The notes under the pieces were generated by a model. That model was not told the DNA's origin, searched no databases, and saw only the letters and a program-made list of their open reading frames with translations. A program made the position numbers and the translations under genes. A stretch of 64,000 nt of DNA from Ruditapes philippinarum (Eukaryota), in NCBI RefSeq assembly GCF_026571515.1, contig NW_026862271.1, forward strand, positions 186,001-250,000, in the 5' to 3' direction. This document shows, one piece after another, positions 1 to 49,265 of this stretch (within the stretch, counting starts at the first letter, position 1; every line of letters begins with the position of its first letter).

Positions 1-237
1 GTACATTACAGATAAAGCTTACAAGGAATTCTAGGTACATATAAATTACGAAGTCAATCATGTCAAGATTTCATTTTTTTTCTGTCAAAATTTGTTTTGA
101 AAAGCACTATACATAAAGGGCCTACAATTTAGTTTTTTATTATCAGATGCTTACCAATATAACTTAAACAGTACGTTCTTACCTTCAATGTTTGAGATAA
201 AAGAAAATAGTATGTACAATTTGTTTTATAATTGTAG

Positions 238-3200: not shown

Positions 3201-3603
3201 TCACTTACAGCCCCTGCCACAGTCCTGAATCTGACATTTACACATATAATACTATTGTAAATTATCCATGTCAACCTTCAGATCTGACATTTAGAAACCT
3301 TTGTTAATTTTATTTTTGTCATACACACGTTTATAATCATTAGATATTCTTCAACGACTTAAATGTTGTTTAAACAATTGAGCATGTTTTAAACTTTCGC
3401 ATTTGATCCAAATTTCAGGAAAGAGAAGTTGTATTGGAGAGTCTTTGGCACGTGCAGAATTACTTATATTTCTTGGAGCTCTAGTTCAGAAGTTCCGATT
3501 AGAAAGTCCAGAAAACGAAACAGTGTCGGTCGAACATCTTGACGGTGTTTTCGCACTAGTACATATTCCTAAGCCATATAAGATAATTGCGATTCCACGC
3601 TAA
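238..3603 (+). CDS. Cytochrome P450, CYP2 clan, paralogue 1 (5'-partial; exon 1 lies upstream of the window)
   Basis: Exons 238-523, 1149-1378, 1817-2036, 2772-2992 and 3419-3603 have GT-AG sites and consistent phases. Motifs: WREHRRF (WxxxR), DFGMGK, I-helix AGSHTT, EVLR (ExxR), PERF, haem signature FFLGKRSCIG. Confidence 0.93.
695..955 (+). mobile_element. Degraded or poorly sequenced tRNA-derived SINE in CYP intron
   Basis: GCCTCCTTGGTCGAGGGGTTTAGAG head with A-box-like and GGGTTTGAAACTCC B-box-like segments and an A-rich tail; the sequence is homopolymer-garbled. Confidence 0.45.
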
Positions 3604-4931
3604 AAATGCCATGTGAACTAAAAATCATACCTCTTTTATCCAAAAGACGGTATTGAAACTGGAGTGTTATAAAATGATTCTGTTTTTATGAATATTTTAC
3701 TTTATTATGTATTTTAATAATTATATAAATATAACTTTTTGAATACATTTTATTTGTAAATTATAGAGCATAATATCTAAGGTAACGCCACTTGTAAATA
3801 GAAAAGAATATGTGATAATGCCGAGAATACTTTTTAAGGTAAAGACTAAAACAGTGTTAATGAAATAATTAACTATTTGTTAGATAAAAGTTATATAAGC
3901 AGCATTAAAATAAAATAATACACATTTTGACTTAATCATGTATGTTTTCTGTCATGTCAAAATCAATATTTTTTTGTAATAAACATTTATATCTTTTAAA
4001 TGATTCGTTTTAGAAGAATTGAGAGTTTTACATTCAATAAATAGAAGAAAAAAATTAAAAAGCCAAGCAAATATGTCTGATTATTTATAATATGTCGAAT
4101 ATTTTGTCATGACGCAACTGTTGATTTTGTACAGTTCTTTGTCTCAAACGCCAGAAATAAATATTACATATTTTGGCAGATTGGTCATAAGCTAAAATCG
4201 TTAAATAAAATAGTTATCAAGCTATGATATGGATATGAAAAATGATCATTTTATTCAAACAAAGTTTTGTGGAACGTTGGAAAATATTGTTGGTGAAAAA
4301 AATGTCTAAATTATTCCATAGTAGCCTATACATATAAGTGGCACCAGAACGCAGTTATTACTCTTAGTTGTCACCATAAACGAAATTAGTTGCACGGAAA
4401 ATAGTGCCTAGGTTAGTTTCTGAATATTCATGAAATTTATTATGAATGAAAGCTATGACAAATGGCATAATTTAACAAAAGAGTTATGAAATGATTGACA
4501 AATGTGAATTTTGAATCAATTCGAAAGTTAACATATGCACAATGGTCATTTTTGACATGGGTATTTTGCCTGTTTACGGCCTTTATGACAATAAATCATC
4601 ATATTCACTTCATATGGGTGAAAAGTTTGGAAAGAAAATAACTAATCAACCACTCATTTACAAAAACAGATTCTTTTCTCTCTGATAGTTTGTGTTTTGT
4701 TTGGAACTTTTAGAAAATTGCAACCTCACTCAGAGTCTATAAAGAACATATAGAAAAAATAACTGAGGTATTGGGCCAATAATGGTTGAAGGTATATATA
4801 TTTAGTGTTTACGACAACTTGTTATTATTTAGTTCAACACAAAGTTTGACCGTTATTGTTGTTTGTATAAAAAGATTGAAGTCACAATATGTAATGTAAT
4901 CAGTCTGAACAACACTGGGACTTATTTTATA

Positions 4932-4995
4932 GAACCATGGACAAAATGAACCATGGACAAAATGAACCATGGACAAAATGAACCATGGACAAAAT
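4932..4995. repeat. 16-bp minisatellite (GAACCATGGACAAAAT)x4
   Basis: Four perfect tandem copies read directly. Confidence 0.95.
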
Positions 4996-6083
4996 GAGTC
5001 CAAATGCTGTAACATAGCTGTAATTGAAAATTTCCGTTGTTTAACCGAACTTCAAAATATGTGATTTGATGATATATCATTTTGCTATTTGCCATGGTCA
5101 TCTTTCTGCTGTCGGAGAGGTCTGTGTTGTAAATTACTTTTATCATTTAAACACCAGTTGAAAGGTATATAACACTGAATGGACCTTCGCTATGTAGTCC
5201 TTCGAGTCCATAGTTGTGTTTCGTGAGACCAAAATTGGGATATTTTTCGTTTCAAGAATATGTCCTAAGTTATGTCTCTTTTGGTAAGACTCTACAATTT
5301 CTGAATAGCGATGAAGATGAACATTTACACATAGCACGTGCCACTGTTTTTTGTGAATGAATTAAATAAAAGTCCAAAACTTTTATTTAAGATGAAAGTA
5401 TTTATTGAAACGGTCTCCTGTTAGTCCTACAGTTTGTCATAAGTCTATGAATTATTTAATCTTAGTGATCTCGTTGTCTTACAAAATGTATACAGTGAAA
5501 AAAAAATATCTATGTAGTGAATGACATAAAATACCTTTCGATTGCCAGAGGAAGGCGAGTGAATAAATTCTTCATAGTCATCAAACATTAATTTTCTTAT
5601 AATTTAATAAAATATGATTCTTCCTGACCTGACACTTATCTGCCTACAAATTGAACAATGTTGAAAGGCACGACCACGATATTAAAATTATTCTATAATA
5701 TTACTCTTGAAAATGTCTAGTCGTATTTACATCTGTTCATCGCAAATGTTTTAAGAAGTTATTTTTTTCTAGTCATTTTGAAAATATAAGACAGAACTAT
5801 GTTTCGACTGCAAGATTGGTGGGTTTTTCATTATTTAGGTTATATCAGGTTAGTTTTGTTTTATAATAACAAATAATTCTTTAGCGATTAATAATTAAGC
5901 ATAAACGTTATAAAACGTTTATAAGTATAAGGAAACTTCGATCAATCTTGGAATTATTTCCGAATCATATGAAGTTGTAATTATGACTATAAACATATAT
6001 TTTTTTCTATTCTAAAACCATTCAATAACGTTTAAGTACGTCATCTTGGCCGTGTTATGTTCACAGGAGTGTATTAACTAAAT

Positions 6084-6345
6084 AGGTCAAAGTGCAAATG
6101 AAGTTTTTTTTAATGCAATAAATGTAATCTAACTAAGGATTTCATATATAAATAGCATGAACGACTAATTTTAGATATATTATTTTCTATTCTGACATTT
6201 CAACTTCTTTTTTTAACGTCGTTGGCCTATCTGATCGTGAAATGTTTTTAAGCTGATACGGCCAATGATTTGACCTCATTTGACTGATGACATACGAATT
6301 GAAAATTTCAATCGGTTATTCTGACGAAATGTTAGGATTATAAAA
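6084..6345 (+). promoter_or_regulatory. Proximal promoter of CYP paralogue 2: DR1, CCAAT, DR4-like element, TATA box
   Basis: AGGTCA-A-AGTGCA at 6084-6096, CCAAT at 6262-6266, TGACCT-catt-TGACTG at 6271-6286, TATAAAA at 6339-6345, ATG at 6398. Confidence 0.5.
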
Positions 6346-6397
6346 GACAAACATTCATACACCTATAACCATTGGATGGTAAATAATAATAAATGCG

Positions 6398-9300
6398 ATG
6401 GATTTACAAACAATATACGCCTTTTTGGCCAGTTTAACCAATATTCCGTTAACTTCGATAATTTTGGTAATCACTGTTAGTGTACTGCTACACCACATTT
6501 TCTTCTCAATACGTTATGACCCGCCGTTACCACCTACCCCGAAATTTAAGCTTCCGCTCATTGGACATTTACATCTGTTGGAGCATGACATGAGGAAACC
6601 TTTCAAGAAATACAGGAAACAACTTGGAGATGTGTTTTCATTATATTTTGGCGGTAAACTAACAATCGTTATATCAGGTTATGAGACATTGAAAGAAGCA
6701 TTTCATAAAAATGGAGAATTGTTCGCTGACAGACCAAGTCTCTATATCACAGACATTGCTACGAGAAATCGAGGTAATTTTACAAACTATTTACAATTTG
6801 AATTTCTATTCGTTGTTTATCGGATATCTTACGGATAAAAGAGTCTCTAACTAGTTCTTCGTATATTAAGATGCGCATTTTGTCAAGATAGTAAGCATCA
6901 AATAAGATGGCACTGATCTGAATATTTTACTATTTATTTTGATTCAAGTTGCATTTGTATTAAATTAATAGTTGTTAAAAATATGCTTAATGTCGAATTA
7001 TTTCGCTTTTATATGAATTTTAAATGAATATGTATCGTTCATTTAATTGTTTCACAGATGTTATTCATGCCATTTTATATTTTTGCCATCATAAAATATG
7101 CAAGAAGGAAAGGAAGTAATGAAGTCAAATGTATTATATGCATGAACGTGCACTGCTTATCAAATTTAAGTATTATCGAAATTTGAAATATCAGCAGATA
7201 TTAAAGTAAATTATTTCAACTTATTAGATATATGTGACGAATTGTGTTAGACACATAGGAGTTATGTGGTTCGTCCACTGTCAATATTTAGATAGATGAC
7301 ATAATCAAATAATGATTGTTCAGCTTTTATGGTAGAAGAAGACCTTAAGTCAGTAGAACCACTGACGTTCCGTATGTTTCTCACATGAAAGAATCCCATC
7401 CCTGACGGCATTCGACGCCCCTTATAAGACCTTTTTTAGAACACAATGCATGCACTAAAATTGTCTTTTTAGTCCATGATCAAATAAAGTGATTTTAAAA
7501 GTGAAAGGTTCTTAAAATTCTTGTATTTATATAAATAGGTATTGTACTTGCTAATGGTGAAAAATGGAAAGAACACCGACGGTTTGCGTTGAGTACATTA
7601 AAAGATTTTGGAATGGGAAAAAGCAAACTTGAAGGGAAAATTCACGAAGAAGTTCAGTCGTTTATATCTGAAATAGAAGAATTCCATGGGGCATCTTTTG
7701 ATCCGAAGGATTTTATAAGCACCCATGTAGCAAACATAATATGTTTCCTCTTGTTTAAGGGGAAGTTTAGGCACGATGATCAAAGATTCTTAGGAATGAT
7801 TAACCTCATCGACGAAAATATGATGTAAGATTTTGTATTCTACACAATTTTAACATCTCAATATCATTTTGGTCAATATGCACACATACTATGCAATAAA
7901 ACATATTTTGATATAAAGTCAGAATATTTTACTCTTATTTGATAACAAAAAAAGTAACAAATAATAAAACGTTGTGGAAATGAGATCAATTTCAATGTTT
8001 AATCATACGTTTCAAGATGCTTGAAATGAATATAGTAAATCCAGAAATAAAAGACTATTACTTAAATGTATTTACAATGATGAATGCAGGTTTTGAGAAT
8101 TTTTGTAAATATTTTTTGTTATGTATTTTTCTAGATCATCAGCTGGGCTTGCAAATCTCATGCCATGGTTAGCGGAATTTCCAGGTGATCCGCTGCAATG
8201 CAAGAAAATGATTCGCAATGCGGACAAAATATTTGAGTTTATTGGAGATATCATTGACGAGCATGTACGTGAATATGATGAAAACGATATTGAAGATTTC
8301 ACAAGCGCTTATATTAAAGAAATGAAGAGGAAACAATTGAACGAGGAGTCAACAACTATGAGCTGTAATTACATATACATCAGCAATGTGTTTTCAGTTA
8401 TTAATTATCATAATTAGTAACCTATCTTTTTGATGTATTTTAAAATTTCTAAATGGATAAAAGGATTGACCAAAAGCAATTTAAGAAAATACTATGAGTT
8501 TGGTAATATGTATTCGTGCGAATGTTTGCGTTTATTATGTGTGTTTTTTACTTTGTAGATGAGGAGTTATCAGGTAATATTGGAGATCTGTTTGTGGCAG
8601 GCGCACATACAACAACAGCATCAATGAGATGGGCATTAATTTGTCTCGTGCAATTCCCTGATATACAAGAGAAGTTGTACAAGAGTATAACCGAGAGCAT
8701 AGGGGACCATAGATTACCTTCAACTGCGGATAAAACAGCTCTTGCCTACCTTGAAGCTTTTTATTTGGAAGTACTAAGGTAAGACGACTTGATGTTTAAA
8801 TTAAGGTAACAAAAAGGGCATAATATATAATTATAGTTTTGTAATTACACACATGCTATTTAATTAAATGAGTATTAATTAGGCACGAATACGCTTTAGA
8901 ATTAAGACTAATGAAATAATACCATGATAACGTTAACAAGAGTTCGTCTAATTGCGTTGTTGTTAATGCTTTCGAGGGATCACCCTTTATCCAGATTTTT
9001 ATCAATTGCGATAGATATTTATCACATATTGTTGTAAAATTTGCAGATACTGCACTGTAGTGGTAACAGGTGGAGTGCATGCAACTACAAAAGATTTGAC
9101 CTTCAAGGGATATACAATCCCTCAACATGCGCTTATAATGCCTGACATACATTCTGCATTACATGACCCTGATGTTTGGAATGATCCAGAAATCTTTAGA
9201 CCTGACCGATTTTTAGATGATGCTGGTACTATAAGAAAGCGAGATGAAATGATAGCGTTCTTTCTGGGTGAGCTCTTTTTATAGTTCTATTACTTTAATA

Positions 9301-9598
9301 ATTGTTCCCATTTAAGACTCCTTAAACCGATAAATCCGTACGTGGATAATACAGAAATACGCCAGGTACATATATTTTCATTTTCTATTAAGCGTATATT
9401 TATATTTTAGGGAAACGAAGTTGTATAGGAGAATCTTTGGCAAGAGCTGAGTTACTTATCTTCATAGGTGCTCTTGTTCAAAAGTTTCGTTTAGAATGTC
9501 CCGAGAATGAGACAGTGTCAGTTGAAGATCTTGACGGAGAATTTGGATTGGTACATACACCAAAACGGTATAGAGTTGTGGCAATTGCCCGTGCTTAA
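6398..9598 (+). CDS. Cytochrome P450, CYP2 clan, paralogue 2 (complete, 506 aa)
   Basis: Exons 6398-6773, 7539-7824, 8135-8364, 8559-8778, 9047-9267 and 9411-9598 sum to 1521 nt with an open frame. N-terminal membrane anchor, Pro-rich hinge (PPLPPTP..LPLIGHL), WKEHRRF, AGAHTT, EVLR, PDRF, FFLGKRSCIG. Intron positions match paralogue 1. Confidence 0.95.
7320..7425 (-). mobile_element. SINE fragment (same family as 34810-34985)
   Basis: The reverse complement shares the TTCATGTGA...CCATAAAAGCTG blocks with the copies at 34.8 kb and 57.8 kb. Confidence 0.4.
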
Positions 9599-10996
9599 TT
9601 AAGCATCATATATGAATGACTACACCATAAAATATGCGGTACATAGACATATATTTGTATGTATACATGTATATTAAATTGATCATAAATAGAAGAATAT
9701 ATCATTAAATGTATCAGGTACAATCCCTTTCTGCATTACTGTGTTACTCATTATAATTGTTTATAGTTTGTTTGAAATATATTTGAAAATACATTTATTG
9801 CATAACATGTATCAAAAATGAGTGAATGTACAAATGCATCATGATATTTGTCATTAACAGATTAATTTCTCATAAAGTGTTAACATTCTCGTATAAAGAG
9901 GAATATTATTTATTATTAGCTAATACATGAAATATATTATAATTAATTAAATTTAATCATATTATAATGAATGTATCATAAGTTTTATAATAATTCAAAT
10001 AGTATATCAGAAGAAGTAAATTACCACTATTCCTAATACATTCTCTAATTAACTTCACAACTATTACATTTTTAATATTTTTGATATAAATATTAATTAA
10101 TTGTAAATATATGTTTATTGTATTTGTTTAGTCATAAACATTTTTCTTGCCATCTTTTTTGTTGTAAACTTATCATCAATTTGCCGAAAATCTATATAAG
10201 ACTTAAATCTTTTGCTCAATAAAGGGTCTATATATATATATGTTACCGAGTTTTATTTTATTTCATACTTCCTATTTCAATAATTTATTAGCTATTTTAG
10301 TGACTTTGTAATATTTCTTCTTTCATATTTCACTATCTATAAATCTTTAACCAATAGTAAAGCTTGCAAGTACACGACTTTATATAAAAAATATTTAAAA
10401 AATAATTGGTCCATTACGGAAGGTATGTAATACCATAAATAATGATGTTAATGGCGGTATATCAAACCACAAAAAAATTGCCTATGGATGTTGTTGGGTA
10501 AGTGTGAGACCCATGATCCGATTTCAATTATTTTTATATAGCAGATAAATTGTTCAGGAACAAAATATTATTGTTCTTCATATAAACGTCTAGAACTCTA
10601 TCAACATTTTTATCCATGAAATATTTCACAAGAATATCCAAATGCTACATTTCTATAGGTTTTTATGAATATTTAAAATATTAATGGAATATGTTCTAAT
10701 TAATCAACTAACTTAAATTAAAACGATAAGCAGTAAGTATATCTATCGAATAAAAACAGAATCTCTAAGTAATAAGTAATAAAACGTTTAAGGTTCCATG
10801 TTCTGTCTACCTTATATAGAGCTTATGATTGTCATTACAATGTTTTTGATATCATTCAAAGTAGAAATATTTAGAAGTCAAATACTCTAAAAATAAATTC
10901 TTTTGCAGTATACTAAATGCGCACGTTTATTTCTAACAACCATGAGCTTCTTTCGTTAATTTTTGCCCTTCATTTTTATCGAAGAATACAAACATA

Positions 10997-11288
10997 AAGC
11001 TCAATAGGTAGAGCGTTGAATTGTGAATCGGCGACCCGGGTTCGATTCCCCGACGGTGCAGGGAACTTTCCTTGTGATTCATCATGAAATCTTTTCTACT
11101 GGTCATTCGTATTGTTCGTCTGCTCTGGCATGTACAGAAGCTTCAGTTCCTTGCGAATGTGAAAGCAACTAGAACTGGTAAACTGTTTGACATGCCCAGG
11201 AACTGAACTGTGTTCTAGTAAAATCAATGTGGCTTACTGCCATGATCCGGAGTGAAAACTTACAACACCAATACCACCACCAACAACA
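10997..11288 (+). mobile_element. tRNA-derived SINE
   Basis: A box (AGCTCAATAGGTAGAGCG) and B box (GGTTCGATTCCC), an unrelated body and a (CAC/CAA)n tail; no complete acceptor stem, so not a tRNA gene. Confidence 0.7.
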
Positions 11289-11821
11289 TTAGGGTATTGA
11301 TATCCATTGTCTTTAACAGACGTAAGTTTACATGATTCACAACATTTTAACCGTTATTAGTTGATTACAGTTACCTCATTCCGATACCATCCTGAAGCTA
11401 GAGTAAACTAGTTGAAACTGAGTATGATCTTATTTCAAAGGTGTCGGAAATTCATGCGCATGCATATATTATGCATTAATAATTGATACAAATAAAACGC
11501 CTGTCATCTATGTTTACTATCTTTACATCTAAAATTGTAGCATGTATAAACCATTCAATGTTATCTTGCCAAATAATCTACGCTCATGTGGCATGAATCC
11601 TGTTGTAGAATGTTTTGAATGTCAAAATCACGAATAAAAACCGAGTATGCAACTAGTGGGGGAAAAGGGATATATAGAAGACAACAGTAGTGTATATATA
11701 CTGTATGATGATTTAATACTGTATTGGAGGTGAACACTTGATTAATAATACTGCATCATTTTGTGTTTGACATATAAGCTCACACAAAGTGTTTATGTTC
11801 TGTCTAGAGGACACTGACCAT

Positions 11822-13774
11822 CTACCAATCACTTGGTTCTATTGAAAACTGAGGATGCTCCAGATTAATTATTTCCCTTTCATTCTGAAACTGACATCCT
11901 TGTATGACACATTCTGGGCTACCTTCCTTGTATAACCAATTTTGCCTGAAAATTGAAATTAAAGGTTCAGGTACAACATTTCATTACCCATATGCAGATC
12001 GATTAAGTTATGTTTGAAAATATACTATAAATGGTGCAACATCATTCATGACCCCTTGCTTAAAATCATACAGTATCTTCTGAATAAAACATTTACAAAA
12101 CTGTAAGTATACGCTGTATTAAAGTCATTATGTTATTTCTCTACAGACATCAGCTTATTTTGCAAAAATTCAGAATTTTGACCAATGAAACGCACAACTT
12201 ACATGAGTTTAACATTCGCCTTGTTCCCCTGGATCACCCCTTTAATGGAACCTGTTCGTGTATTTTTCACACAACCAGTTACGCCAATTTTACTTGCTGC
12301 TTCCAATGTGTACTGAAATTAGAAAATAACCTAAAATGATTCAAATTGAATCATCTAATTATGTGTCTAAATGTAAGATATATTCATGTATCTTTATTTC
12401 ACACTTAATAAGATATAACCAATGAACTTTCAGCATTTGAACTACGTAATGTTCCGATGAAAATATTCATGAACGGATCCAATATAATCAATTTATAACT
12501 ATTTCCAGAGTACAAAACATCCATATCAAGTCCATATCATACCCGATATAGCCCCGTTTTCAATTTTAAAGTCCAAAATATCTGTAGCAAATACATATTA
12601 TACTCCATCTAGCCTTATTTCCATTTTCAATGTCAAATTATTTATGTAATTTCCTCATTGTATTTGATATAACAAAGTTTTGACAAAATGTCACAAAAAT
12701 TAAATAGAGGTCAATAAACATTAAACAATACTGATTCTATATGACTCGTACACCGCTGAAAAACCTGTATCAGACTCGACTATCGTTTCGTCGAATATAG
12801 GTTTGACAGCAGTGTATGTACTCGTCCAATAACATTTCGTATCGACCTCAGCATTATATAATAACCTCATATAATAACCTCATAAAATTCATTAACTTTA
12901 ATTAATTCATTTAACAATCAATGGACATTTCATTCACTTAGCATTTCAATATACTTCACGATCGATATGATTGTAATTTATTATGATAAGATAGATAATT
13001 ACTATGTTCCCGGTTATTTATAGGCAAAATTTCACGTTTTCCGATAAGAATACAATATTTCTGAATAGATCATACATTTTTGGGTTTTATTTGATAACGT
13101 TAAGGTACATAAAAAACATATCAAAAGTGAATAAATTGGTGTTGCGCATTGACTTGCCCGACTCGCCAATATAGAACCAGATTAGCCTCTGTCTTATTTT
13201 CTTCTTTATTTTAGCATTGTAAATTGAAATCACTTAAATTTATTAAAGAGACTGTCCCAAAAAAGAAACATGTTAAGTCCACTATTCACATCTAGTGGCG
13301 GGGTAAAGGATGAATTGAAAATCAATTACCTTTCTAAAGTAAACACCTGAAATAGAATAAAAATGACTTTGAGATTTATATTTGCTATATGTACAAACGA
13401 TTATCAATATTTCAATGCTATGAAAGTGGAAGCTTGAAGATTATTCTGAAATGTTCTGTTTTTCCACGATATATGTTCATTTAAACAAGACAATTTACTA
13501 AATTAACAATCAACAATTCATACATATCAACTTGACAAATCACATATAAATATTAAACTATATATACATAACGTTCTATTTCGATTTTATACATATCAGT
13601 CGAATCTTCACACTTCATTAGTAATAATGCTTCATAAACAAACGAAACAATATACAAATATATACAAAAGATAAAATAAAGAAAATGTATTAATTTTTTA
13701 CCTTGAACGAGGCCGAATACCTCAAAATCCACTGATAACAGCCTCGACGGATCTAAATAACTCGTTTCCTCCAT
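11822..13774 (-). CDS. ACYP: Acylphosphatase (107 aa)
   Basis: Exons 13774-13702, 13346-13330, 12312-12203 and 11945-11822 sum to 324 nt. Translation MEETSYLDPSRLLSVDFEVFGLVQGVYFRKYT...GVTGCVKNTRTGSIKGVIQG...WLYKEGSPEC... contains VQGVxFR, the catalytic Asn and the GSP motif. Confidence 0.92.
12749..12816. repeat. Imperfect palindrome (foldback-repeat remnant) in ACYP intron
   Basis: TACACCGCTG..AAACCTGTAT pairs with ATATAGGTTT..CAGCAGTGTA. Confidence 0.55.
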
Positions 13775-15124
13775 TGCTTTCACTATAACTAATATATTTA
13801 ATGTATAGGGTAAAATTGTTTAGGGTAACTGTGTTTATTGAATTCTATATTGATTACCGCTTTAAATCAATCATTAATCTTTTATACACTTGTGCATATT
13901 TATCGATCATACTATTTGTGTGTACATTTTATTCTATTGTTATTGTACGTTTGATCAATTGTTCATGAACCACTTAAAACTGGAAAAAACGGGAAAAAGA
14001 AAACCACTTATTATTTCCTTTAAAATGTTTATTTTGCGATTAAATGGAAAACTTAAGTTAAAAAAATAACAGAAATTTTTTTGATAAAATATTTTAGGAT
14101 AAGGTTTAAAAAATGTAATATTTATTGTTAGGGCTCACTTTTTTATATGCAGGTAATTTGCAGTTAAGGAAAAGCCCTTAAAATTGTTTTTAATTTTAAA
14201 TTTTTTTTTAAATTTTAACTATGATTCCCTTCAAAAAACAGCCCAAACAAATAAAAACTTTTACTTTATAGCTTCGTTAAAACCCAAAATATTCTAAAAT
14301 TTTTTTCTAAAAAGTATAGATATTTGGCAAAAAACTAGGGAGTTATTAAAAACAAATGATCCTACTTTGTAAGAATATATCAAGGAATGGTAGGAAAACG
14401 CGATATACGTTTAAGACATGGTGTCATACGTCAAATAAACGTTTCCATACGCATACACTGAACATGTTCAAAATTATTCAACGCATACGGGCGTTTGAAT
14501 TTAATAGCTTTATGCGCACGCTAAAAGCTGGAGATTAGCTACAATATTATAAACTGGAGTCAACAATTTGTTCCTCGTAAATTGCAGGTCAGAAATGCTT
14601 CTTAAACGGTTGCCGAAGAAAACTTTGGCGGCTGATATGTGTCCTGTCGCATTTTTGCTCCTGCAGGCGAAATCATAATAATCACTTTGTCTTGCAGAGC
14701 GCCGGACGAAAACACGAATCTGCTTGCGCCCCGCGGAACAAAAATACGACATAGCACATATCAGCCACCATAAGACCCCATACCCCAACAGAAAAACAAA
14801 CTAACAAATTAATAACTCATGCGTGTATCCCACCCTCCTCTACGGTAAAATAAATATTTTGACAATCCCATTTTAAATTATATGATCACAAAATATCCAC
14901 ACCTTTTTAACATTTGGATATACAAACGGACATGTTGTAATTTGATACCATCAAGTTAAATTTGTTTACCGATATTATGTCAGGTGTAAATGAAGTTTGA
15001 AAGAATGAGGAAGATATAATCTTTACGTCTACACCTATACAGACTTATAAACTAAATAAACACGCTTAAATTCAGGAGTTTTACTGACAGGCTCTCTTAT
15101 TTTATTAAAAGTCAAGTTCAAACA

Positions 15125-17579
15125 ATGCCAGGTATGTGAATTTACAACATTTTTTCTGTATTTTGTTTATACGATCGATTTTTTATGAACATGTTAGTTT
15201 CTTTTCAAGGTTGCATAATATAGTGTTTATCTTTTATTTAGGTCAACAAACAAGAACAAACATATGATCTTAATCTATTAAAGTAAATATAAGAACTGTT
15301 TTCGGAAGACTTTCAGAATAATTATAAATAATTATGTAAATTGTCACTTGATGAAAATAACGTTCAATAAATAAAATATTAATAAAGGTACTATTTTAGC
15401 ATGAACAATTAGAGTCAACCAAAACAAAATATGTTAACATTAAAACAAGCTTCATGACGAGTTGAATATTGTTTAAGATAAATTTAAAACAAACTAATAC
15501 GTTCAGACCTCTAAAAGAGTAAACAATGGCTTTTTTGTCTGACATTTTACCTAACGTAAGTCGGCCTCCATATTGTATTCTAAATCAATAGATATTGAAC
15601 TTTTTCGTGTTGCTTGTTATCATTCAATATAACTTATCAGTGATTTTACAAAATCAGTTTTTGCCTTTTTTTCTACATCCTATTTTGTTTTTCTAATAGG
15701 TGTACATTTATAACTTTAAATGAGATGTATTATGACCGGATTTAAAAGAGGAAGTATAGAACGAGGTTGTTACGTTAAGCGTGAAATTATCATATCATGT
15801 TTTTGTATGTTTCAAAAGAGAAGAATGGGAGAATTTTTTTATAATATTGGTCACTTTGTAAATTGTTGAGAAGTATGAATTCAAAGATGTCTCTCTTACA
15901 AGTGTTAGACATAGAGTTAAAATTTCCAACTGCCAAATTGATAAAAATATAAAAAAAAATCTAATAAATTACCCAGTATATATAAGTTACATATTTGATA
16001 TAAGACGTACGTAACCTTAATTTGCAAATTAACTTCGTTACTGTAAATGGATCATTCGCCGAAACAGTGCCTCTTTTCTCTTGCTTAAGTCACAACAAAA
16101 GTGTCACAACCAAATCACCCTTTTTTGAAGACACATGTCTATGCTTTTAAAATTTGTTAAATATATTAACAGAATTTAATTGTTGCTGCTTCTTTTATAT
16201 ATTGTACAAAATAAATTAAAACGGTAGATAAACCTTTGAATCTTGGCACACGCCTTTGTCAACTTTTCTCCGACAATTACTGTCAGAGGTATTTGATATT
16301 TATATAACTATCAATGTACCAATTGAACATGAAATAATATAGTATCATACTTATTAAGTTTTTAAATATATAACGACACAAGTTTCTTTCTTTTTTTCTC
16401 TAGATTGTAAACCACTCAGTTCACACAGGCAAAATCCACCTGTGTTTACAAAAACAAATATGTTTGAAATCATACCAGACAAGCACGAACTTGGTACGGG
16501 ATCAGAGGTGACAGTAAAATGTGCTCCAAATCTTAAATTACAAGGCGAATCTTCTTTGAAATGCTTAGCTAATGGAGAATGGAATTATACAAGTATACCG
16601 GTTTGCAAAGGTACATATTATTTTGAAACGACCGTTTCATTTTTGAATGTTTTTTTCAAGGTGTCATTTAGTAATCACTGGTAAAGTAGTAAGGTTTTAT
16701 CACGTTAAAACAAACTTAGCAAATGCCGCCTTAAGATTCTCAAAAGAGTTATAATTATTACAACTAAATGAACATCTTAAACATAACGCTGCAGATTGAC
16801 AATTATCTTAATAATAGAACCAGCTCGTGCACTATTGTTTATATTGAAAGAGTAACCGTGCACTTCCGCATATCATTTCAGAAATAAATACAAATGCTGA
16901 CATCTCATGGACCAATACTCCATGGAAAGTAGTTCTTATCTCTGTTATATGGGGAGTTGCAGCCTTGGTTGTACTTGCATTAGTCATTAAAAGTGTTGCC
17001 ATTTGTATTCGGAAAAGGAGAGAAAATAAAAACAAACAAAGGCATTACACATATGGAGGGTCATATAAACGTCATGGAGATAGACATGTACACAAACATC
17101 ACGAAGATAACGATAGGCATCACACCAATCATACTGGCCAGAATGGTCATCATCAATATAACCAGAGTGATCATCATGATGGATTTCATAGTCATCATGA
17201 GAAACATGGAGGACATAACCATCTGAATAAGAGTCATGATAAAATTCATCACCACAGTCACGATCACGGACATGATCACAGTCATGATCACAGTCATGAT
17301 CAAGGAAATGATCACGGTCACGGTCATGATCACGGTCATGGTCGTGATCACAGTCATTGTCACGGACATGATCACGGTCACAGTCATGGTCACAGCCATG
17401 GTCACGGACATGATAATGATCATGGTCACGGTATTCATAAGAAAACTCATCATAAAGGAAGTCATGGCCATGAGGACCACAAAGATAAACATGTTCACCA
17501 TAGAAGTATATACGATCAAGCGTCTGGCCAGAGTGAAGCACTTTCAGCGTATGATGTACCCATGAAAGATTTGAGATAA
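15125..17579 (+). CDS. Single Sushi/CCP-domain transmembrane protein with His-rich cytoplasmic tail (about 303 aa), intact copy 1
   Basis: Exons 15125-15131 (ATGCCAG/gt, tentative), 16404-16610 (phase 1-1 Sushi exon: C...VTVKC..NLKLQGESSLKCLANGEWNYTSIPVC) and 16882-17579 (hydrophobic VVLISVIWGVAALVVLALVI, then RKRR, then His-rich tail) sum to 912 nt with an open frame. Confidence 0.8.
17248..17432 (+). repeat. Coding hexamer/dodecamer repeat (CATGAT/CACGGT/CACAGT) encoding (HD/HG/HS)n
   Basis: Degenerate tandem CATGATCACGGT-type units read directly. Confidence 0.9.
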
Positions 17580-18962
17580 TACCATATATAATTGTATATA
17601 TGACTATATCAATTTGAGTACTTCACCGTTTTTGTAACATTTTCTGTGAAGCATTTTTGCAAACAGGGTCAACATCTATCAGGTCATATTTTTGATATAT
17701 ATTAACAATTTGTTTGATCCACAGGTCATTTGTATGTTTCAGTGAGGTAAATTACACAAAATTACTGAAAATTTTTGTAAATATTTAATCACTTCAACAG
17801 TAATAACTTGCAAAAACAATCGTAACCCCATTATGACAATAATAAAGAGAATGTAAGTTGATAATAAACAAACCTAAAGTAAACATATGAAGTGAAAGTA
17901 AAAAGACAATCGGCGGTTTGATTTTAGGACCGTTGACTTTCTTTATAAAGAATTTTCCCTTGCTTTTGGTAAAAATTTTCACTTTCAAGATGACAAAAAT
18001 AATGATTCATTTATTAAGTTACAGTAATTATAGATAGATATTTATAGAACATACATTTTGTTTTTATTTAATCAGAATTAAAGTGATTTATTGCTTAAAT
18101 TCTTTCAGAAGAGGCCCAATATATCATCCCCCAGATGTTTCTATCACTGATCATACCTAAGTAATAATTTTTCAATTGTGCATAGCAATCTGACAAATTT
18201 CATATATCATTCATGTTTTAACAATATGGTACTATACTAAAAAATTCTAAAACTTACGTAGCATTTGTATTGTTTATGATTTTTAAACTATTTGTATTCA
18301 ATGAATCTGTTTACGCTTAACACTAACATACATGTAATTACAGGTGTCAATAGCTGTTTTACATTTTCAATTACTGTCCTGTTTTCCATATCAATGTTGT
18401 TTTATGTTACTCGTCCTTCTTGATTGCAGTACAATTTGATTTATCTTGAAATGTTTATGCTCATCTTGAAGCATGCAGCTTTAAATTATGAACCGTTACA
18501 TAGTGTCATATCTTGATTTCAAGTGGATTAGTTTGTGACTAACTTGACATAACTTCCTTTTCTTCATCGTTGTACATCCAAATTTCACACTTACTGTAAC
18601 AATTAGTATTTGCACACGTGTTGTTGCTTTTACATCAAGTAAGAGGTTAAAAACATCTTTTGGTGCGAGGTCAAATCTAAACTTATAACCACACTTTTGA
18701 TCTATTCTGTTAAATCAAACACTGTCTCCCGACTAAATATTTCGCTGAAATTGGCGACGACAAGGACCTACACACTATTCAGTTGTACGTCTGAGTGTTT
18801 AAGTACAGCTTATGAAAGTCTAAAACATTACATAAGTAAAAAGAAGATTAGGTGTACTACTTAAAGTCTGTATCTGACTGCTTCTTTCAAAATGTATGTT
18901 TGTAGTTTTGTTTTAACTTTCAAATTTAAATGTATATTTATATGAATCAGATTGGCCGCGTT

Positions 18963-21091
18963 TTACAGGATATTGCATGGCGGTTTCCACCATTTTGCGT
19001 GTTCTGTCTCTTCTTTCTTCTTTAGCAAAGCATCTTCTGAGAAGTAAAGCATTTGCCTTAAAGCAGATGAGGCGAGAATACTTATTTTGTCGTCAAGCTC
19101 GGTCTCATTTTCATAGTTCTTTATTGGAAATACATTGTTACGTGGAAGACCGAGCAGGTCTGCTATCTTCTGAACAGCCTCTTCAACATTTGTGCTTGAA
19201 CAGGCTAAGGAAATATCCTTCTTCACATCTTTACAGAGATTGTCTATTTTTGTTAGAACAACTGTTTGTACTATACCTGTTATAAATATAAAAATGAATA
19301 ATTTAGTAAGTTTATCATGTTATCTCCTATTCGGTGTTTATGTAACGGTTCAGTGTTTTCTGGTTAATCATCCTTTAATGCTTCTATGAAAATGTTGAAA
19401 TAATTCATCACTTAAAAAAAGGAAAAAACAAAAAATGTTTTGATTTGCAAAAAAACTTTTTTTTTTTGGGAAAACAAAGTTTTTAGGAAAAAAAAAATTT
19501 AAAAGGGTTTCAAAAAGAAAAAGCAAAAAGTTAGGTTTTAATAATTTGGTCCTTAACGTAACGTTTTAACCAACCCATAACAAAAAAGCCAAACCCCTTT
19601 CCCCCTTTTTTAGGTTCTGAAAAGGGCTGATTTTTGTTTAAAACCTTTTGATAAAAAAAGTTCCCCTGATGTTTTCAAACAATTTAAAAAACCCCTATGC
19701 AAAGTACTCTAAACATTGGCAGACGGGGGTTTCCGTTAATACCCCAAGAAACTGAATGCTCCCTTGAAAAATAAAAAAAAGAAAAATTAAAAAAATATTT
19801 GAAATTTTTAAAACATTTAAAACAGCAAATTTGCTTTAAAAGGTTTTGTAAAAATATTTTTTGCATATTACTTTTTGTTTTACTTCGTTTTAGTAATGTA
19901 TATTACGGATAGAATAGAAAAATAAGAATTTCCCACAAAAAAAGGCCCAAACGACAAAAAAATTGAAAATGTTGCGGCCGGGGTTTCAATGAGCCTTTGT
20001 TCAAACCCCGGTAACTTTCGAAGTTCAAGTTTCCGCCCCGTCCTATAACCGATTAAGCAGAAATTCAACATTTAAATACAAAATGGTAAAATTTTGAATT
20101 TAAAAATATCCGCAGATGTGTTCATAGGTTATCATGGAACTTTCAATGTTACTCGCTATTGCCATTCAATGAAAAGCGGCATATGGTCCCCAAGTCATAG
20201 AATGCGTGTCCCCCAAACGGGTAAACAATAGGCAGAACTTAATAAAATGGAATTTGAAAGGGGGTCAGAGGTTATGATGACTTCATATCACAGATAAGAC
20301 GTCAAAAGACAAAAGCAAAAGCAGGCAACATTTCCTAAAGATGATTCAACATTATTCAAGTAGGAATATTGGAACCACCCAAATAGAAAATGGCCAAATA
20401 GTTAAAACTTAAATATATTAAAAACACAACAAAAAATGTCGTGCCGAACGATCTATAAGGATCGGACATATAAAAACTCTGATTTAATGTACGGGAAAAC
20501 TTTAACAGCCTCCACACGGCAAAAAAAAACAAACGCTGATGTGGCGATAAAATAGAGAAAATAACAGAAATCCTACAGAGAGTCCAAAACGACAAAATTG
20601 AAAATGTTGCAGGCTCGGTTTGATTGAGTCTGTTCATGGACAGTACTGTTACGTGCAAACTACCGTCCATGCCTTTACACCGGCTTAAGCAAATTAAACA
20701 TTTAGGTATGAAATGGTAAAATTTTGAATTTAGAAATATCCGCAGACGTGTTTATACGGCGGTTATCATGGGGCCGTCAATGCGACATGTTAGTGCCATT
20801 CCATGAAAAGCGGCATATGGTCCCGAGGTAATAGAAAGCAAGTGCCCTAAACGAGTAAACAATGTGCGGAACTAAATAAAATGGAATTTTGAATGAGTAT
20901 TCTATAATCTTATAACATGTTTTTTGACAATTGCAAAGAAGCAATACCTCGTAGTGGTCTTTTATGTGTCCATCCAATAAATATTTGCAGTCATCATGAT
21001 GAAGACCATTGAGTTCTCCATTCCGCGTGTGTCACATAAACAGAAGTTCATGTCTGTACAACTTTGATCTTTTACAGCGTAGGTGGTATAA
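18963..21091 (-). pseudogene. IFI44L: IFI44-like GTPase copy A (5'-deleted pseudogene)
   Basis: The last exon 19276-18963 is intact (TKID, PIKNY, ...PCNIL*). The exon at about 19770-19600 is garbled. The DTRG exon at about 21091-20949 has a frameshift and an AG>AT acceptor change. The first three coding exons and the promoter are absent. Confidence 0.8.
19925..20895 (+). repeat. Two copies of a dispersed ~330-bp repeat in an IFI44-like intron
   Basis: The block TGAAAATGTTGCAGGCTCGGTTT...CACCGGCTTAAGC...GGCGGAACTAAATAAAATGG recurs at 50220-50530 and 50826-51150, inverted at 55070-55460, and as fragments near 2735, 35700, 55830, 56600 and 58780. Confidence 0.75.
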
Positions 21092-21382
21092 TTAAATAAT
21101 GAAGATACTTGTAACATTATTTCCGGGATTCCATTTAAGAAACACATGCGATTTAGCTAAGAGTCTAGATTCAGTATGTTATCAAATTTTTTTTTTCATT
21201 CAGTTTAACATATTTAATTTAAGTTGGAATCCCAAAGTACTGGCTTGGAAATTCCAGCAGAATACGTTATTGAGGTTACTATATCTAGGTCAAGTTTTTC
21301 TAAATTTAAACCGTTAGTCATGTTAATAACCTCTTCATTTGTACGTAAAAATTAAACTTTGTTTTTTTATCATAAATCTGCT

Positions 21383-28132: not shown

Positions 28133-28220
28133 CAAACATGTTTATCAAAGTAGTATATACGATCAAGCTTCAGGCCAGAATGAAGCACTTTCAGCGTATG
28201 ATGTACCCGATAATACCATA
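28133..28220 (+). pseudogene. Sushi-His gene copy 2: only the last ~25 codons (followed by duplicated 3' flank)
   Basis: Encodes KHVYQSSIYDQASGQNEALSAYDVP followed by a 13-nt deletion. 28135-29600 closely matches 17490-18960. Confidence 0.85.
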
Positions 28221-40000: not shown

Positions 40001-41049
40001 AGTAACTGAATTGCTATGGTAACTCGTCTTTGCTCTCCCCCTGAGATTCCACGGATAATACTACTTCTTATCCTTGAGTCAGCAACATCTTTTAAACCCA
40101 TTTGTTGTATTACTTTAGCTACCTTTAATTTTTTATTACAATTTTGAAATAAACTACATTGATAAAGATGTATCAAATATACTTCTAAACGATATAAATG
40201 TATTCTTGATACATGTAACAACCTCATGAAGACATCCATTTTAGTTATCACATATAAATATTCAATTTGAACATCAAATTCCTTATTCGTTCCCGGTCCT
40301 ACATTCAAACGCTAAGATACATCATTAGAAAATCTACACAGATATTTGAGCAAATTACATTACACTACTTTTATTTCACATAATTTAATATTTGTTGAAA
40401 AAGGTTGCTTTGCTTCCGCAAAGCAGTTATTTTACTACTTTATAAAAGAAAATTACCTTCCGTTCAATATCATCTGTTGTTACATGTGCTGGTAATTTCA
40501 ACTTTGCAGTGTATCTTAACGTTTCTCTAACAGTAGAGTTAGGTAACAGCCTGCATGACGTACGTAGCATATTGCTGGATGACGTCCCGAGTACATTTAA
40601 AGATCCTGTTTGTTTTGTGATTGATATTGTTACTGTGTGTATACCACACTTGCAAAAAATTATATATGTATATAATTATGCAAATAAAACAATTTTCAAA
40701 CATCGAAGAATATGTTAAATGTGTACTGCAAATATTTGTGCACATTATATTTAATCATTAAATTACATGCATTCATTTCTTATCCGAAAATTTGACTTAG
40801 AATTTATAGAAAATAAATTTCTAATTACCTCCCTTTATTTACATGAAATGTTAAATTGGGCAATATCTTTATAAATAATGCTTATTGAAACTTACAATAT
40901 TGACAAATCTTAATTTGAGCATCATATTTATGAAATAAAACCATGAAAAAATTGTGTTACAGGATCTTTAACGTTGTTAAGATATACCTGTCCACTGACA
41001 TCTCCCGTTGACCGACTAGATATTACATCAAGCATTGAGGTTCTGAATC
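37074..41049 (-). pseudogene. ABCG5: ABCG5-like half transporter, copy 1 (pseudogene, 5'-truncated)
   Basis: Exon remnants: degenerate Walker A end (GFRTSMLDVIS), YVMQ..LLPN.TVRETL, signature ISGGEQRRVTIAIQLL, Walker B with deletion, HQPSSDIF, GYPC..YTNPLD, IQDRI.LIY, ESRDGLY, ANEF. Multiple frameshifts, a MITE inside an exon and missing exons. Confidence 0.85.
40601..40967. mobile_element. 367-bp MITE, Kolobok-like (TTAA TSD, AG...CT termini)
   Basis: TIR AGATCCTGT/ACAGGATCT; TTAA at 40597-40600 and 40968-40971. Removing the element and one TTAA restores the ABCG5 frame YLNNVKCTRDVIQQY. Confidence 0.75.
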
Positions 41050-41149: not shown

Positions 41150-43326
41150 CAATAACTTTAATTAAAAAAAGCAACCATAACGAACAATTAGAGTCCATCA
41201 AGTAAAAGATGTGTGTCAATTTTTAAAACAAGTTGCATGACAAGTTCAATATTGTTTACAAAATACACAATCTAAAAATGTAAACAGTGGCTTCTTTGTC
41301 TGACATTTTATCTAACATAAGTCAGCCTCTGGTTATCTATTTTAAATTGATATATCTTAAACTTTATCGTGTTGTCTTATCCTTCAATATAACTTATCAG
41401 CATATGAATATGGATCTAGCAAAATATTTTTTTGCCTTTTTTTTCTAATATTATATTCTGTTTTTCAAATTTATGTACATATAAAACGATAAAAGGCAAC
41501 TTAAATGAGACGTTTTATGACCGGATATAAAAGAGGAAGTATAGAATAACAAATAATTTTTATACGTTTTTTTTGTATTTAGCAAAAGAGAAGTAGAGTT
41601 TTATTGATGGATAGGAGAAATTTGTTTTCTAATATGGGTCACAATTACAATTTGTTAAACATTTGTTGCTGCTTCTATTTGATATTTATATAATTATAAA
41701 TGTATCTATTGAATAGAAAGTAACAAAATAACATACCTATTAAGCTTTTGAATATATAACATGTATAAGGACACCACTTACCTTTTTTGTTCTAGATTGT
41801 AAACCACTCAGTTCACACAGACAAATTCCACCTGTGTTTACAAAAGCAACTGTGATAATTTCTGCCAAGTTATCTTAGCAAGAGGGCCATGATGGCCCTG
41901 AAATCGCTCACCTGTATATAGGCCCCTGGGCAAAGGCCTATTTTAAACCAGGGGCTTTTATTTGAACGAAACTGGTAGACACCCATTAGAAGATGTTTCA
42001 TGATAAATATCTAAGCTCTTACTCTTATAAGTTTTATAAGAATATTTTTAATGTTTTGACTATATACATATAGGGAAAAACAATGACCCTCACGGAGGGG
42101 CGAATTTTGACCGCAGGGCTTTTATGTGAACAAACATTGTAGACACTCACTTAAAGATTTTCATGCTTAGTATCTAAACTCTAGCTCTTAGGGTTTTTAA
42201 AAAAAAAACAATTTAAGTTTTTACTATACACATATAAGCAAAATCAATAACGCCCGGGGCGGGGCCAATTTTTACCCAAGGACCCTTATTTGAACAAACT
42301 TGGCAGACACCCATTAGAAGATGTTTTACGATAAATATCTTAGCTCTAACTCTTTGGGGTTTTTAAAAAGAACATTTTTTAAAGTTTTTACCATATACAT
42401 AAAGGGAAAAATAATGACCCCTTGGGACGGGGCCAATTTTTACCCCAGGGCTTTTATTTGAACAATCTTGGTAGACACTGACTAGATAATGTTTCATGCC
42501 AAATATTTAAGCTCTAGCTCTTTTTGTTTTCTAAAAGAAGATATTAAGTGTTTTCTTTGAACAATATTTAAAGTTGACTACCAAAGAAACATTCATGTGA
42601 AGTTTGGATGAAATTAGCTTAGCGGTTTATGAGGAGATGTCGTTTTAAGTAAAAGTTAGACTTTTTATTATGAAATGAAGAGCTTTAAACATTTGACTTT
42701 TAAGTGTGACCTTGACCTTGGGATAACAACCCAATTTTCGCCCTCTGCACATCGTCTCATTATGGTGATTACTTCTGCCAATTTATTTTTTTAAAAATTT
42801 CAGTAGTTTAAATGTAATAGAGCGGTAACAAAATATAGACTTCTATTATGAAATGAAGAGCTTTTAAAATTTGACCTTGACCTTGGGGGTAGCAACCCAA
42901 TTATTTCGCTCTGCACATCGTCTCATTATAGTGAGTACTTGTGCCAATTTATTTCAAAAAATTTTCAGTGGTTTAAAATTTATGGAGCGGACACAAACGT
43001 GTTACGGACGGACAGACGGACAGAAGGACGGACTGACAGACGGATGCCATTCCTATAATCCCCTTTCCGGTATGCAGAAGGGGATGAACAAAGGCATTAC
43101 ACATGTTGAGGGTCATATAAACATCATGGAGACAGACCTGTACACAAACATCATAAGGTAACTATAGACATCACAACAATCAAACTGGTCAAAAAGGCCA
43201 TCATCAAGACCATCACGAAGAGAATGGTCATTATCAATATAATTACAGTGATCATCATGATGGATTTCATAGTCAATATGAGAAACATGCAGGACCTTAA
43301 TACCTTAATAAGAGTCATGATAAAAT
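41150..43326 (+). pseudogene. Sushi-His gene copy 3 (disrupted)
   Basis: 41150-41845 matches intron 1 and the start of the Sushi exon (DCKPLSSHRQIPPVFTK). 43087-43326 matches the start of the His tail with stops. The Sushi core and TM segment are replaced by a transposon; the 3' flank resumes at about 46030. Confidence 0.85.
41850..43088 (+). mobile_element. Pearl/HINE-type composite element(s) with internal satellite arrays
   Basis: 5' hairpin AGGGCCAT-G-ATGGCCCT (41883-41899), four ~165-bp monomers (about 41936-42550), two ~177-bp monomers (about 42660-43000), (ACGG/ACAG)n at 43004-43044 and 3' hairpin ATCCCCTT...AAGGGGAT (43058-43085). Confidence 0.75.
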
Positions 43327-45160: not shown

Positions 45161-45199
45161 GTTTGATAAGTATTGAAGCAGTTTTATAGTATTATAGCA

Positions 45200-48790: not shown

Positions 48791-49265
48791 AATTTATTGC
48801 CATATCTTCATTTCAAGTGTACAAGTAAGTGATTACGTTATTAACATAACTTCCATATCTCCGTCGTTGTACATCTAAAATTCACATTTAATGTAACAAT
48901 TAGTATTTGCACATTTGTTGTTTTTTACATCAAGTAAACTTTCAAAATATCTCTTGGTGCGAGGTTTAATCTAAACTTAAAACAAAACTTTTAATAAATT
49001 CTTTTCATCAAACACTGTCTTCCGACTTGGTATTTAGCTTGACTTGGCGACGATTACTTTTATCTTGTTCAAGCTTCTACACACTATTCAGTTTTATTTC
49101 AGAGTGTGAAAGTATAGCTTATGAAAGTCTAAAACATTACATAAGTAAAAAGAAGATTAAGTACTACTTAAAGTTTGTGTGAGACTGATTCTTAAATATG
49201 TATCTTTGTAGTTTTTTTTTTTAACTTTCATAACGTTTATTTATGTGAATCAGGTTGGATGCGTT

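What the first reader, a model, noticed from the sequence alone, without database searches (positions are those of the whole stretch)
15125..17579. Unusual architecture: one Sushi domain, one TM helix and a His-rich intracellular tail, with no signal peptide
Seen: MPD directly precedes a CCP domain carrying an NYT sequon, then a TM helix followed by RKRR (positive-inside, so N-out) and about 155 residues with roughly 57 His (hand count) in (HX)n runs. Known: (HX)n tracts bind Zn/Cu/Ni in ZIP and ZnT loops; Sushi domains are complement/adhesion modules. I do not recognise a characterised family with this combination. Inference: a type III membrane receptor linking extracellular recognition to cytosolic metal buffering or pH/metal-dependent clustering, possibly in nutritional immunity.
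Basis: partly seen in the sequence, partly recalled or inferred. Interest (0 to 1): 0.72.

Follow-up and report, generated by a model that had tools for sequence, protein, structure and literature searches.

The report
Clam Sushi protein with histidine tail
A spliced Manila clam gene encodes a one-pass membrane protein with one Sushi domain, no signal peptide and a 57-histidine tail that is predicted to face the cytosol and would likely respond to zinc or acid; it is likely a derived offshoot of an unstudied clam protein family.

Summary
Three coding exons (15125-15131, 16404-16610, 16882-17579) give a 303-aa protein identical to RefSeq XP_060558194.1, 'histidine-rich glycoprotein-like', Ruditapes philippinarum. 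Both introns are spliced in RNA data, and one contig links all three exons behind a 5' exon with in-frame stops, so this isoform has no signal peptide. The signal-less start (Met-x-x-Cys, Sushi, TM) is a family trait. Two clam paralogues and a Mercenaria protein share it, but their tails are Tyr/Arg/Asp-rich and, in the clam paralogues, multi-exon; the conserved pair carries PPPY and NPMY motifs like NEDD4-recruiting SUSD4/SUSD6 adaptors. Only this copy has a one-exon His tail (57 His in 153 aa). Two neighbouring copies are dead. The Sushi domain is under purifying selection (p 0.015); the tail cannot be told from neutral (p 0.12). Two deeply diverged haplotype classes occur. Best reading (0.45): a derived surface adaptor whose disordered tail senses cytosolic Zn/Cu or pH. 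Rival (0.33): a slippage-made low-complexity tail without a special role. Nothing tested metal binding or immunity. Verdict: new variant of a known kind, interest 0.4.

The parts
14700..15124 (+). 5' untranslated part of the first exon; 8 in-frame stops, nearest at 15053-15055; at least 91 nt covered in X1, at least 430 nt in X6
   Evidence: contigs; translation; the true start site is not shown by contigs
15125..15131 (+). Coding end of exon 1: Met-Pro plus one base, phase-1 donor; same 7-base coding end in both paralogues
   Evidence: paralogue starts
15132..16403 (+). Intron 1, 1272 nt, GT..AG
   Evidence: joint in 4 of 8 runs
16404..16610 (+). Exon 2: Sushi/CCP domain, residues 3-71, four Cys and Trp62; NYT sequon at 16583-16591
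16611..16881 (+). Intron 2, 271 nt, GT..AG
   Evidence: joint in 5 of 8 runs
16882..17579 (+). Coding part of exon 3: stalk, TM helix and the whole tail in one exon (paralogues split the tail over five or more exons)
16929..17009 (+). Transmembrane helix, about residues 88-114
   Evidence: hydropathy; helix 85-126, pLDDT 79-93 over 91-120
17010..17021 (+). RKRR basic cluster after the helix (positive-inside)
17043..17501 (+). His-rich region, residues 126-278, 57 His, predicted disordered
   Evidence: (pLDDT under 50 over 129-297)
17247..17441 (+). (HX)n core, residues 194-258, 29 His in 65; built on a 12-nt tandem unit (17232-17380, 12.4 copies, 71% matches)
17550..17561 (+). YDVP, the only YxxP motif of the tail; its reading as an SH2 (Crk/Nck type) site is recalled, not tested
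28134..28208 (+). Remnant copy 1: only the last 25 codons of the tail and the 3' flank remain
41182..43326 (+). Dead copy 2: intron 1 piece, first 20 Sushi codons, an inserted repeat in place of the rest and of the TM, then a His tail piece (43087-43326) with a 1-nt gap and two stops

Best explanation
This spliced clam gene encodes a signal-less one-pass membrane protein whose Sushi domain is predicted to face outward and whose histidine-rich, predicted disordered tail likely acts as a cytosolic metal and pH switch that would change its clustering or trafficking. Shown: exon structure, splicing, Sushi domain, one helix, His content, family membership. Inferred from charge bias and family motifs: N-out insertion by the helix acting as a signal anchor. 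Inferred from the paralogues: the family works as surface adaptors, the Sushi domain and helix holding a client protein and the tail recruiting trafficking machinery (PPPY for NEDD4-type ligases, NPMY for endocytosis). Inferred: this copy is a derived duplicate that lost those motifs and gained a His/Asp/Gly tail; Zn2+, Cu2+ or Cd2+ binding, or a fall in pH, would compact or cross-link the tails and gate access to the terminal YDVP motif and lysines, as His-rich cytosolic loops do in IRT1 and ZIP4. Confidence is about 0.95 in the gene model, 0.85 in the topology and 0.45 in the switch role.
For: Splicing and one linking contig. Met-x-x-Cys start in 4 of 4 full-length family proteins, no hydrophobic stretch before the Sushi domain in P0001 (best 12-residue KD 0.57), and net charge after the helix of +3 to +6 in 4 of 4. 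PPPY and NPMY in both P0152 and Mercenaria P0154, whose tails are 60% identical; PY motifs bind NEDD4-family ligases in SUSD4 and SUSD6 (passages of PMC7972451 and PMC12720080). Sushi exon: 7 replacement and 7 silent changes among listed variants against 79% replacement sites, p 0.015. Tail frame has no gaps in X2 (16880-17900) or X6 (16880-17383) and one 18-nt in-frame deletion in X1, while the dead copy has a frameshift and two stops. In X2 three His are lost and two gained, so His density is kept. Computed tail charge goes from -1.9 at pH 7.4 to +7.7 at 6.8 and +16.1 at 6.5 with an assumed His pKa of 6.3; paralogue tails move by 3 or less. Precedent: four His in the disordered IRT1 loop bind Zn/Mn and trigger degradation (abstract of PMC12203963); a ZIP4 cytosolic His segment is tied to Zn-induced ubiquitination (passages of PMC7661102).
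Against: No metal binding, topology or localisation experiment exists here. The tail's 11 replacement and 5 silent changes do not differ from neutrality (p 0.12), nor do the 7 and 2 in stalk and TM (p 0.68). The core is a 12-nt tandem repeat that slippage can make. The His tail was found in no other species (word-based searches, weak evidence). P0001 has no PPxY, LPxY, NPxY or Yxx-hydrophobic motif, so the output side of the switch rests on one recalled YDVP motif. Two adjacent copies have died. IRT1 and ZIP4 need only a few His, so 57 are not required for sensing. Raw-read depth is low (under about 10 in the raw runs). The X2 contig stops at the exon 2 acceptor with no exon 1 cover, which leaves another first exon open.
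Confidence: 0.45

Rival explanations
1. The His tail is a low-complexity tract made by point changes among the NAT codons and 6/12-nt slippage in a duplicate under relaxed selection; it serves only as a disordered spacer, and any function lies in the Sushi and TM part or the gene is slowly decaying like its neighbours.
For: Tail variation fits neutrality (p 0.12); tandem 12-nt unit; CAT, CAC and GAT are the three commonest tail codons; length changes of 18 nt between alleles and 30 nt between copies; two dead copies within 26 kb; all family tails are low-complexity and the paralogue tails do not align better than shuffles either.
Against: Frame open in all 3 RNA haplotypes with tail cover plus the reference; Sushi under purifying selection; His-rich first half already present in the dead copy, so it predates that duplication; only one other stop-free frame of 60 aa or more in the window has 12% His or more, and it is this gene's own antisense shadow.
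Confidence: 0.33
2. It is a polymorphic immune or self-recognition receptor under balancing selection, with the His tail serving as a membrane-tethered metal sink during infection.
For: Two haplotype classes: X6 differs from the window at 43 of 711 coding bases but 8 of 430 UTR bases (Fisher p 6e-4); X5 holds both classes (16 and 1 differences in 171 nt); X1 and X2 are near the reference there; the assembly holds one intact TM exon. Tandem duplication and loss beside a triplicated gene that looks IFI44-like (label recalled; no Pfam match).
Against: The excess divergence includes silent sites (Sushi pS 0.115 against pN 0.037), so there is no sign of positive selection; a paralogue missing from the assembly or deep population structure explains it as well; no tissue or challenge data were available; a low-copy membrane protein is a poor bulk metal sink (inference).
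Confidence: 0.15
3. The protein inserts the other way round (type II), leaving the Sushi part in the cytosol and showing the His tail on the cell surface as an extracellular metal-binding or adhesive domain.
For: The tail has 3 N-x-S/T sequons (1.0 expected, p 0.07), also present in the dead copy; the 87-residue N-terminal part is longer than the under-50 range typical of Oxa1/EMC insertion (passage of PMC13220792).
Against: Net charge 0 before and +6 after the helix; same bias in 4 of 4 family proteins; four invariant Cys that need an oxidising side; cytosolic PPPY and NPMY motifs in relatives' tails, which have 0 sequons.
Confidence: 0.07

Closest known systems
Uncharacterised venerid family: R. 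philippinarum LOC132739569 (P0152), LOC132717104 (P0153), Mercenaria mercenaria LOC123557864 (P0154)
   Same: Met-x-x-Cys start, one Sushi, one TM, basic cluster, tail of 180-200 aa; 31-41% identity over the first 119 alignment columns; first two introns in the same place and phase in both clam paralogues.
   Different: Their tails have 2-5% His against 30%, are Tyr/Arg/Asp-rich and, in the two clam paralogues, multi-exon; P0152 and P0154 carry PPPY and NPMY. Tail homology to P0001 is not shown (35 to 495 of 1000 shuffles reach the score).
Vertebrate SUSD3
   Same: [quoted passage not shown] One Sushi and no signal peptide is my recollection, not confirmed by a call.
   Different: No SUSD3 sequence was obtained, so orthology is untested; a His-rich tail is not known to me in SUSD3 (recalled).
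SUSD4 and SUSD6 (NEDD4/WWP2-recruiting Sushi membrane adaptors)
   Same: Sushi ectodomain, one TM, tail motif that recruits trafficking machinery; PY motifs occur in P0152 and P0154.
   Different: SUSD4 has a signal peptide; P0001 has no PY motif.
His-rich cytosolic loops of IRT1 and ZIP4
   Same: Disordered cytosolic His/Asp segment on a membrane protein.
   Different: Those are multi-pass transporters with a few His; this is one-pass, has 57 His and no transport domain.
Histidine-rich glycoprotein (the RefSeq label)
   Same: His/Gly-rich low-complexity stretch only.
   Different: HRG is a secreted cystatin-domain plasma protein (recalled); here Pfam finds only Sushi, with a TM helix and no signal peptide. 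The label is misleading.

Membership tests
Sushi/CCP domain (PF00084) | Profile score above the curated cut-off | tested here: met
   30.5 bits against 20.7; 33.2 bits for the exon frame
Sushi/CCP domain (PF00084) | Four Cys and a Trp before the last Cys; small beta fold | tested here: met
   C4, C42, C56, W62, C70 invariant in 4 of 4; beta strands in the model; Foldseek's listed hits are nearly all CCP modules but none reaches E 0.001
Type III (N-out signal-anchor) membrane protein | No cleavable signal peptide | tested here: met
   In-frame stops upstream of the ATG within the spliced first exon; best N-terminal KD12 0.57; another first exon in some samples is not excluded (X2)
Type III (N-out signal-anchor) membrane protein | One TM helix with positive charge on the C-terminal side | tested here: met
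   0 before, +6 after
Type III (N-out signal-anchor) membrane protein | Measured orientation in a membrane | not testable with these tools
   needs glycosylation mapping or protease protection
Venerid Met-x-x-Cys Sushi-TM family (P0152/P0153/P0154) | Shared start, first two introns and Sushi-TM homology | tested here: met
Venerid Met-x-x-Cys Sushi-TM family (P0152/P0153/P0154) | Multi-exon Tyr/Arg/Asp tail | tested here: not met
   one-exon His tail, no significant tail alignment; filed as a variant by its N-terminal part
SUSD3 orthologues | Sequence orthology to SUSD3 | tested here: inconclusive
   feature score 0.92, tied with membrane cofactor protein clusters; no sequence or tree; SUSD3 absent from the held part of the topology table
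SUSD4/SUSD6-type NEDD4 adaptors | Cytosolic PPxY or LPxY motif | tested here: not met
   none in P0001; present in P0152 and P0154
Histidine-rich glycoprotein (HRG) | Secreted, signal peptide, cystatin domains (features recalled) | tested here: not met
   only Sushi in Pfam; TM helix and no signal peptide
ZIP/ZnT metal transporters | Multi-pass transport domain | tested here: not met
   one helix, no such Pfam match
Metal-sensing His-rich loops (IRT1/ZIP4 type) | Direct metal binding that changes trafficking | not testable with these tools
   needs binding and cell assays

The most novel reading that the evidence does not exclude
A clam-specific surface receptor in which an ancestral ubiquitin-ligase and endocytosis adaptor tail was swapped for a 57-histidine disordered tail that condenses on Zn/Cu binding or acidification, so that cytosolic metal or pH state sets what the outer Sushi domain holds at the surface: a stand-alone, non-transporting metal and pH sensor, kept as two deeply diverged alleles.
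Probability: 0.2. Interest if true: 0.7.

Novelty: new variant of a known kind. Interest (0 to 1): 0.4.

Why it matters
If the tail is a switch, it would be a metal or pH sensor on a one-pass receptor, whereas the His-loop sensors cited here (IRT1, ZIP4) sit on transporters. It would arise in a sediment-dwelling clam that meets metals and valve-closure acidosis (background knowledge), and it has a natural control in the paralogues with ordinary tails. The work also defines an unstudied signal-less Sushi-TM family in venerid clams with SUSD4/6-like PY motifs, and shows that the RefSeq label is misleading. If the tail is drift, it is an ordinary case of repeat expansion in a duplicate.

Tried and rejected
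One search used a wrong exon 2 start (16406) and gave nonsense; corrected. The profile-free search of 1.84 billion representatives with the Sushi exon was swamped by multi-Sushi proteins; of the best 150 only P0107 (74 aa, unspliced read-through of this exon) is a close relative. No RNA holder was on record in the run index; guessed-RNA contigs and raw RNA runs were laid instead, 8 of 24 listed. Homodimer prediction of residues 1-125: score 0.02, no verdict. Foldseek: no match at E 0.001 or better, model mean pLDDT 51; VIA-align not run. Tail homology to paralogues was not significant, so intron loss against intron read-through as the origin of the one-exon tail is undecided. Whether the duplication came before or after the Ruditapes-Mercenaria split is undecided: 5 against 3 informative sites. 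The 211-aa antisense frame 16987-17622 is rejected as the shadow of the repeat. His runs on L024/L025 are CAT microsatellites unrelated to the fourth family member. X1 letter differences at 17322-17396 were left out of the selection counts as likely repeat misalignment. The variant tables show only the best-supported rows (22 of about 24 coding differences for X2, 27 of 43 for X6), so the counts are partial. The neighbouring minus-strand gene got no Pfam or useful NCBIfam match. Paper searches found no study of this gene or family: (0 papers for four locus or accession terms); the one Manila clam QTL paper checked names a different Sushi gene. The main SUSD3 paper was not held, and the human topology table is cut at 3,318 of 4,863 rows without SUSD3, so SUSD3's lack of a signal peptide stays recalled. 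Earlier scan findings: nothing by sequence, place or words.

Full report
1. The observation. The window holds three coding exons, 15125-15131, 16404-16610 and 16882-17579, with GT..AG introns and one open frame of 303 codons (one search had the exon 2 start wrong). The same protein is in the database as P0001, RefSeq XP_060558194.1, 'histidine-rich glycoprotein-like', Ruditapes philippinarum. Pfam finds one Sushi domain and nothing else. There is one hydrophobic helix at about 88-114, with net charge 0 in the 15 residues before and +6 in the 20 after. The tail has 57 His in residues 126-278; 29 lie in the (HX)n core 194-258, which rests on a 12-nt tandem unit. AlphaFold2 gives a beta Sushi part, a confident helix and pLDDT under 50 over 129-297.

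2. It is one transcript without a signal-peptide exon. I laid 8 of 24 listed runs. Intron 1 is spliced in 4 of 8 (raw RNA run X24, 3 reads; contigs of X1, X5, X6; four studies) and intron 2 in 5 of 8. X21, X22 and X23 showed no joint, at low depth. One X6 contig of 1262 nt covers 14700-15129, the Sushi exon and exon 3 to 17383. The reference has 8 in-frame stops between 14700 and the ATG; only 1 of X6's 8 differences there is listed, so I cannot show each stop in that allele. The X2 contig ends at the exon 2 acceptor with no exon 1 cover, so a second first exon in some samples is not excluded. X1, X2, X5 and X6 are RNA by the tool's guess only; their spliced joints fit that.

3. The signal-less layout is a family trait. 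The genome holds two clear paralogues (C2752, C10335) and a fourth candidate (C15584). Their proteins P0152 and P0153 and Mercenaria P0154 came from the profile search (5 hits among 333 candidates, one an unrelated long protein). All 4 start Met-x-x-Cys, and both clam paralogues have the same 7-base coding end of exon 1 with stops upstream. Identity to P0001 over the Sushi-TM part is 31-41%; P0152 and P0154 share 80% there and 60% in the tail. Their tails have 2-5% His, are Tyr/Arg/Asp-rich and, in the clam paralogues, are split over five or more exons. P0152 and P0154 carry PPPY and NPMY; P0001 carries neither, only a terminal YDVP. The P0001 tail does not align to the others better than shuffles (35, 335 and 495 of 1000), so its origin by intron loss or by read-through is open.

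4. Local history. Two broken copies lie in the window: 41182-43326 (Sushi exon cut by an inserted repeat, TM lost, His tail piece with a 1-nt gap and two stops) and 28134-28208 (last 25 codons). The first half of the His tail therefore predates that duplication. The assembly holds only one intact TM exon.

5. Selection. Among listed variants the Sushi exon has 7 replacement and 7 silent changes (p 0.015 against neutrality), stalk and TM 7 and 2 (p 0.68), tail 11 and 5 (p 0.12). The lists are partial and X1's repeat-core differences were dropped. No frameshift appears in the tail in X1, X2 or X6; X1 has an 18-nt deletion. X6 differs from the window at 43 of 711 coding and 8 of 430 UTR bases (p 6e-4), X5 holds both classes, and X1 and X2 are near the reference in stalk and TM. 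This fits old alleles, but also gene conversion, population structure or an unassembled paralogue.

6. How it most likely works. Shown: structure, splicing, domains, family. Inferred, about 0.85: the helix acts as a signal anchor with the N-terminus out; 304 human one-pass proteins are of this type, and an 87-residue outer part falls between the short and long insertion routes (PMC13220792, passages and section 7). Inferred: the conserved relatives are adaptors like SUSD4 and SUSD6, whose PY motifs bind NEDD4-family ligases (PMC7972451 and PMC12720080, passages). Inferred, 0.45: in this copy the tail became a metal and proton sensor. Its computed charge moves from -1.9 at pH 7.4 to +16.1 at pH 6.5, against 3 or less for the relatives (His pKa assumed). 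His-rich cytosolic loops do couple Zn to degradation in IRT1 (PMC12203963, abstract) and ZIP4 (PMC7661102, passages), but with a few His and on transporters. The main rival, 0.33, is a slippage-made tail with no special role; the tail statistics cannot exclude it. An immune receptor with a metal sink (0.15) and the reverse orientation (0.07) are less supported.

7. Comparison and membership. It has a true Sushi domain and meets the sequence tests for a type III membrane protein. It is not HRG, not a ZIP/ZnT transporter and lacks the PY motif of SUSD4/6. The Atlas ranks SUSD3 second for residues 1-135 (0.92), and SUSD3 is described as a surface protein with extracellular, TM and cytoplasmic parts (PMC11968365, passage; family overview in PMC9083331, passages). 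That SUSD3 has one Sushi and no signal peptide is recalled: the main paper was not held and the topology table was cut before it, so that unseen part bears on how new the layout is. Searches (listings only; PMC13504780 one passage) found no study of this gene or family in the held library.

8. Verdict. A real, expressed, auto-annotated gene; a new variant of the one-pass Sushi adaptor kind, set apart by a His tail found here in one species only. Interest 0.4; 0.7 if the metal or pH switch is shown.

Noticed in passing
window 16404-17383 (runs X1, X2, X5, X6, X22): Two haplotype classes about 6-9% apart in the coding exons but about 2% in the 5' UTR; one run holds both. Could be balanced alleles, gene conversion or an unassembled paralogue.
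   Followed up: partly
L007:391-558 (G000:C2752): The paralogue LOC132739569 and its Mercenaria orthologue both have two alternative exons right after the TM exon, giving two juxtamembrane tail versions in each species (P0152/P0156/P0157, P0154/P0158).
   Followed up: partly
L024:1213-5484, minus strand (G000:C15584): A fourth family-like gene: Sushi exon, TM exon and a short tail exon; its first exon was not found and it was not returned by the protein searches.
   Followed up: partly
window 18963-21156, 29604-30750, 48795-51242, minus strand: Three copies of a gene that looks IFI44-like by recalled motifs, each tail-to-tail with an intact copy, a remnant or the 3' flank of the His gene; no Pfam match.
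   Followed up: partly
window 201-8782: Two tandem cytochrome P450 genes on the plus strand; one exon confirmed as PF00067.
   Followed up: no
window 39982-40311 and 60609-62345, minus strand: ABC-transporter exon (PF00005) and further exons that look like an ABCG-type gene spread across the duplicated region.
   Followed up: no
window 44634-45191, minus strand: 185-codon frame resembling a retroelement remnant (recalled); no Pfam match.
   Followed up: no
window 10998-11260 and 14726-14773: Short repeated elements on which many RNA reads lie only in part; the second lies inside the long 5' exon of the X6 contig.
   Followed up: no
P0154 (Atlas): Nearest cluster is a 55-member, mostly mollusc set of 248-aa hypothetical Sushi proteins (score 0.94); it may be the wider family or the protein's own cluster.
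   Followed up: no
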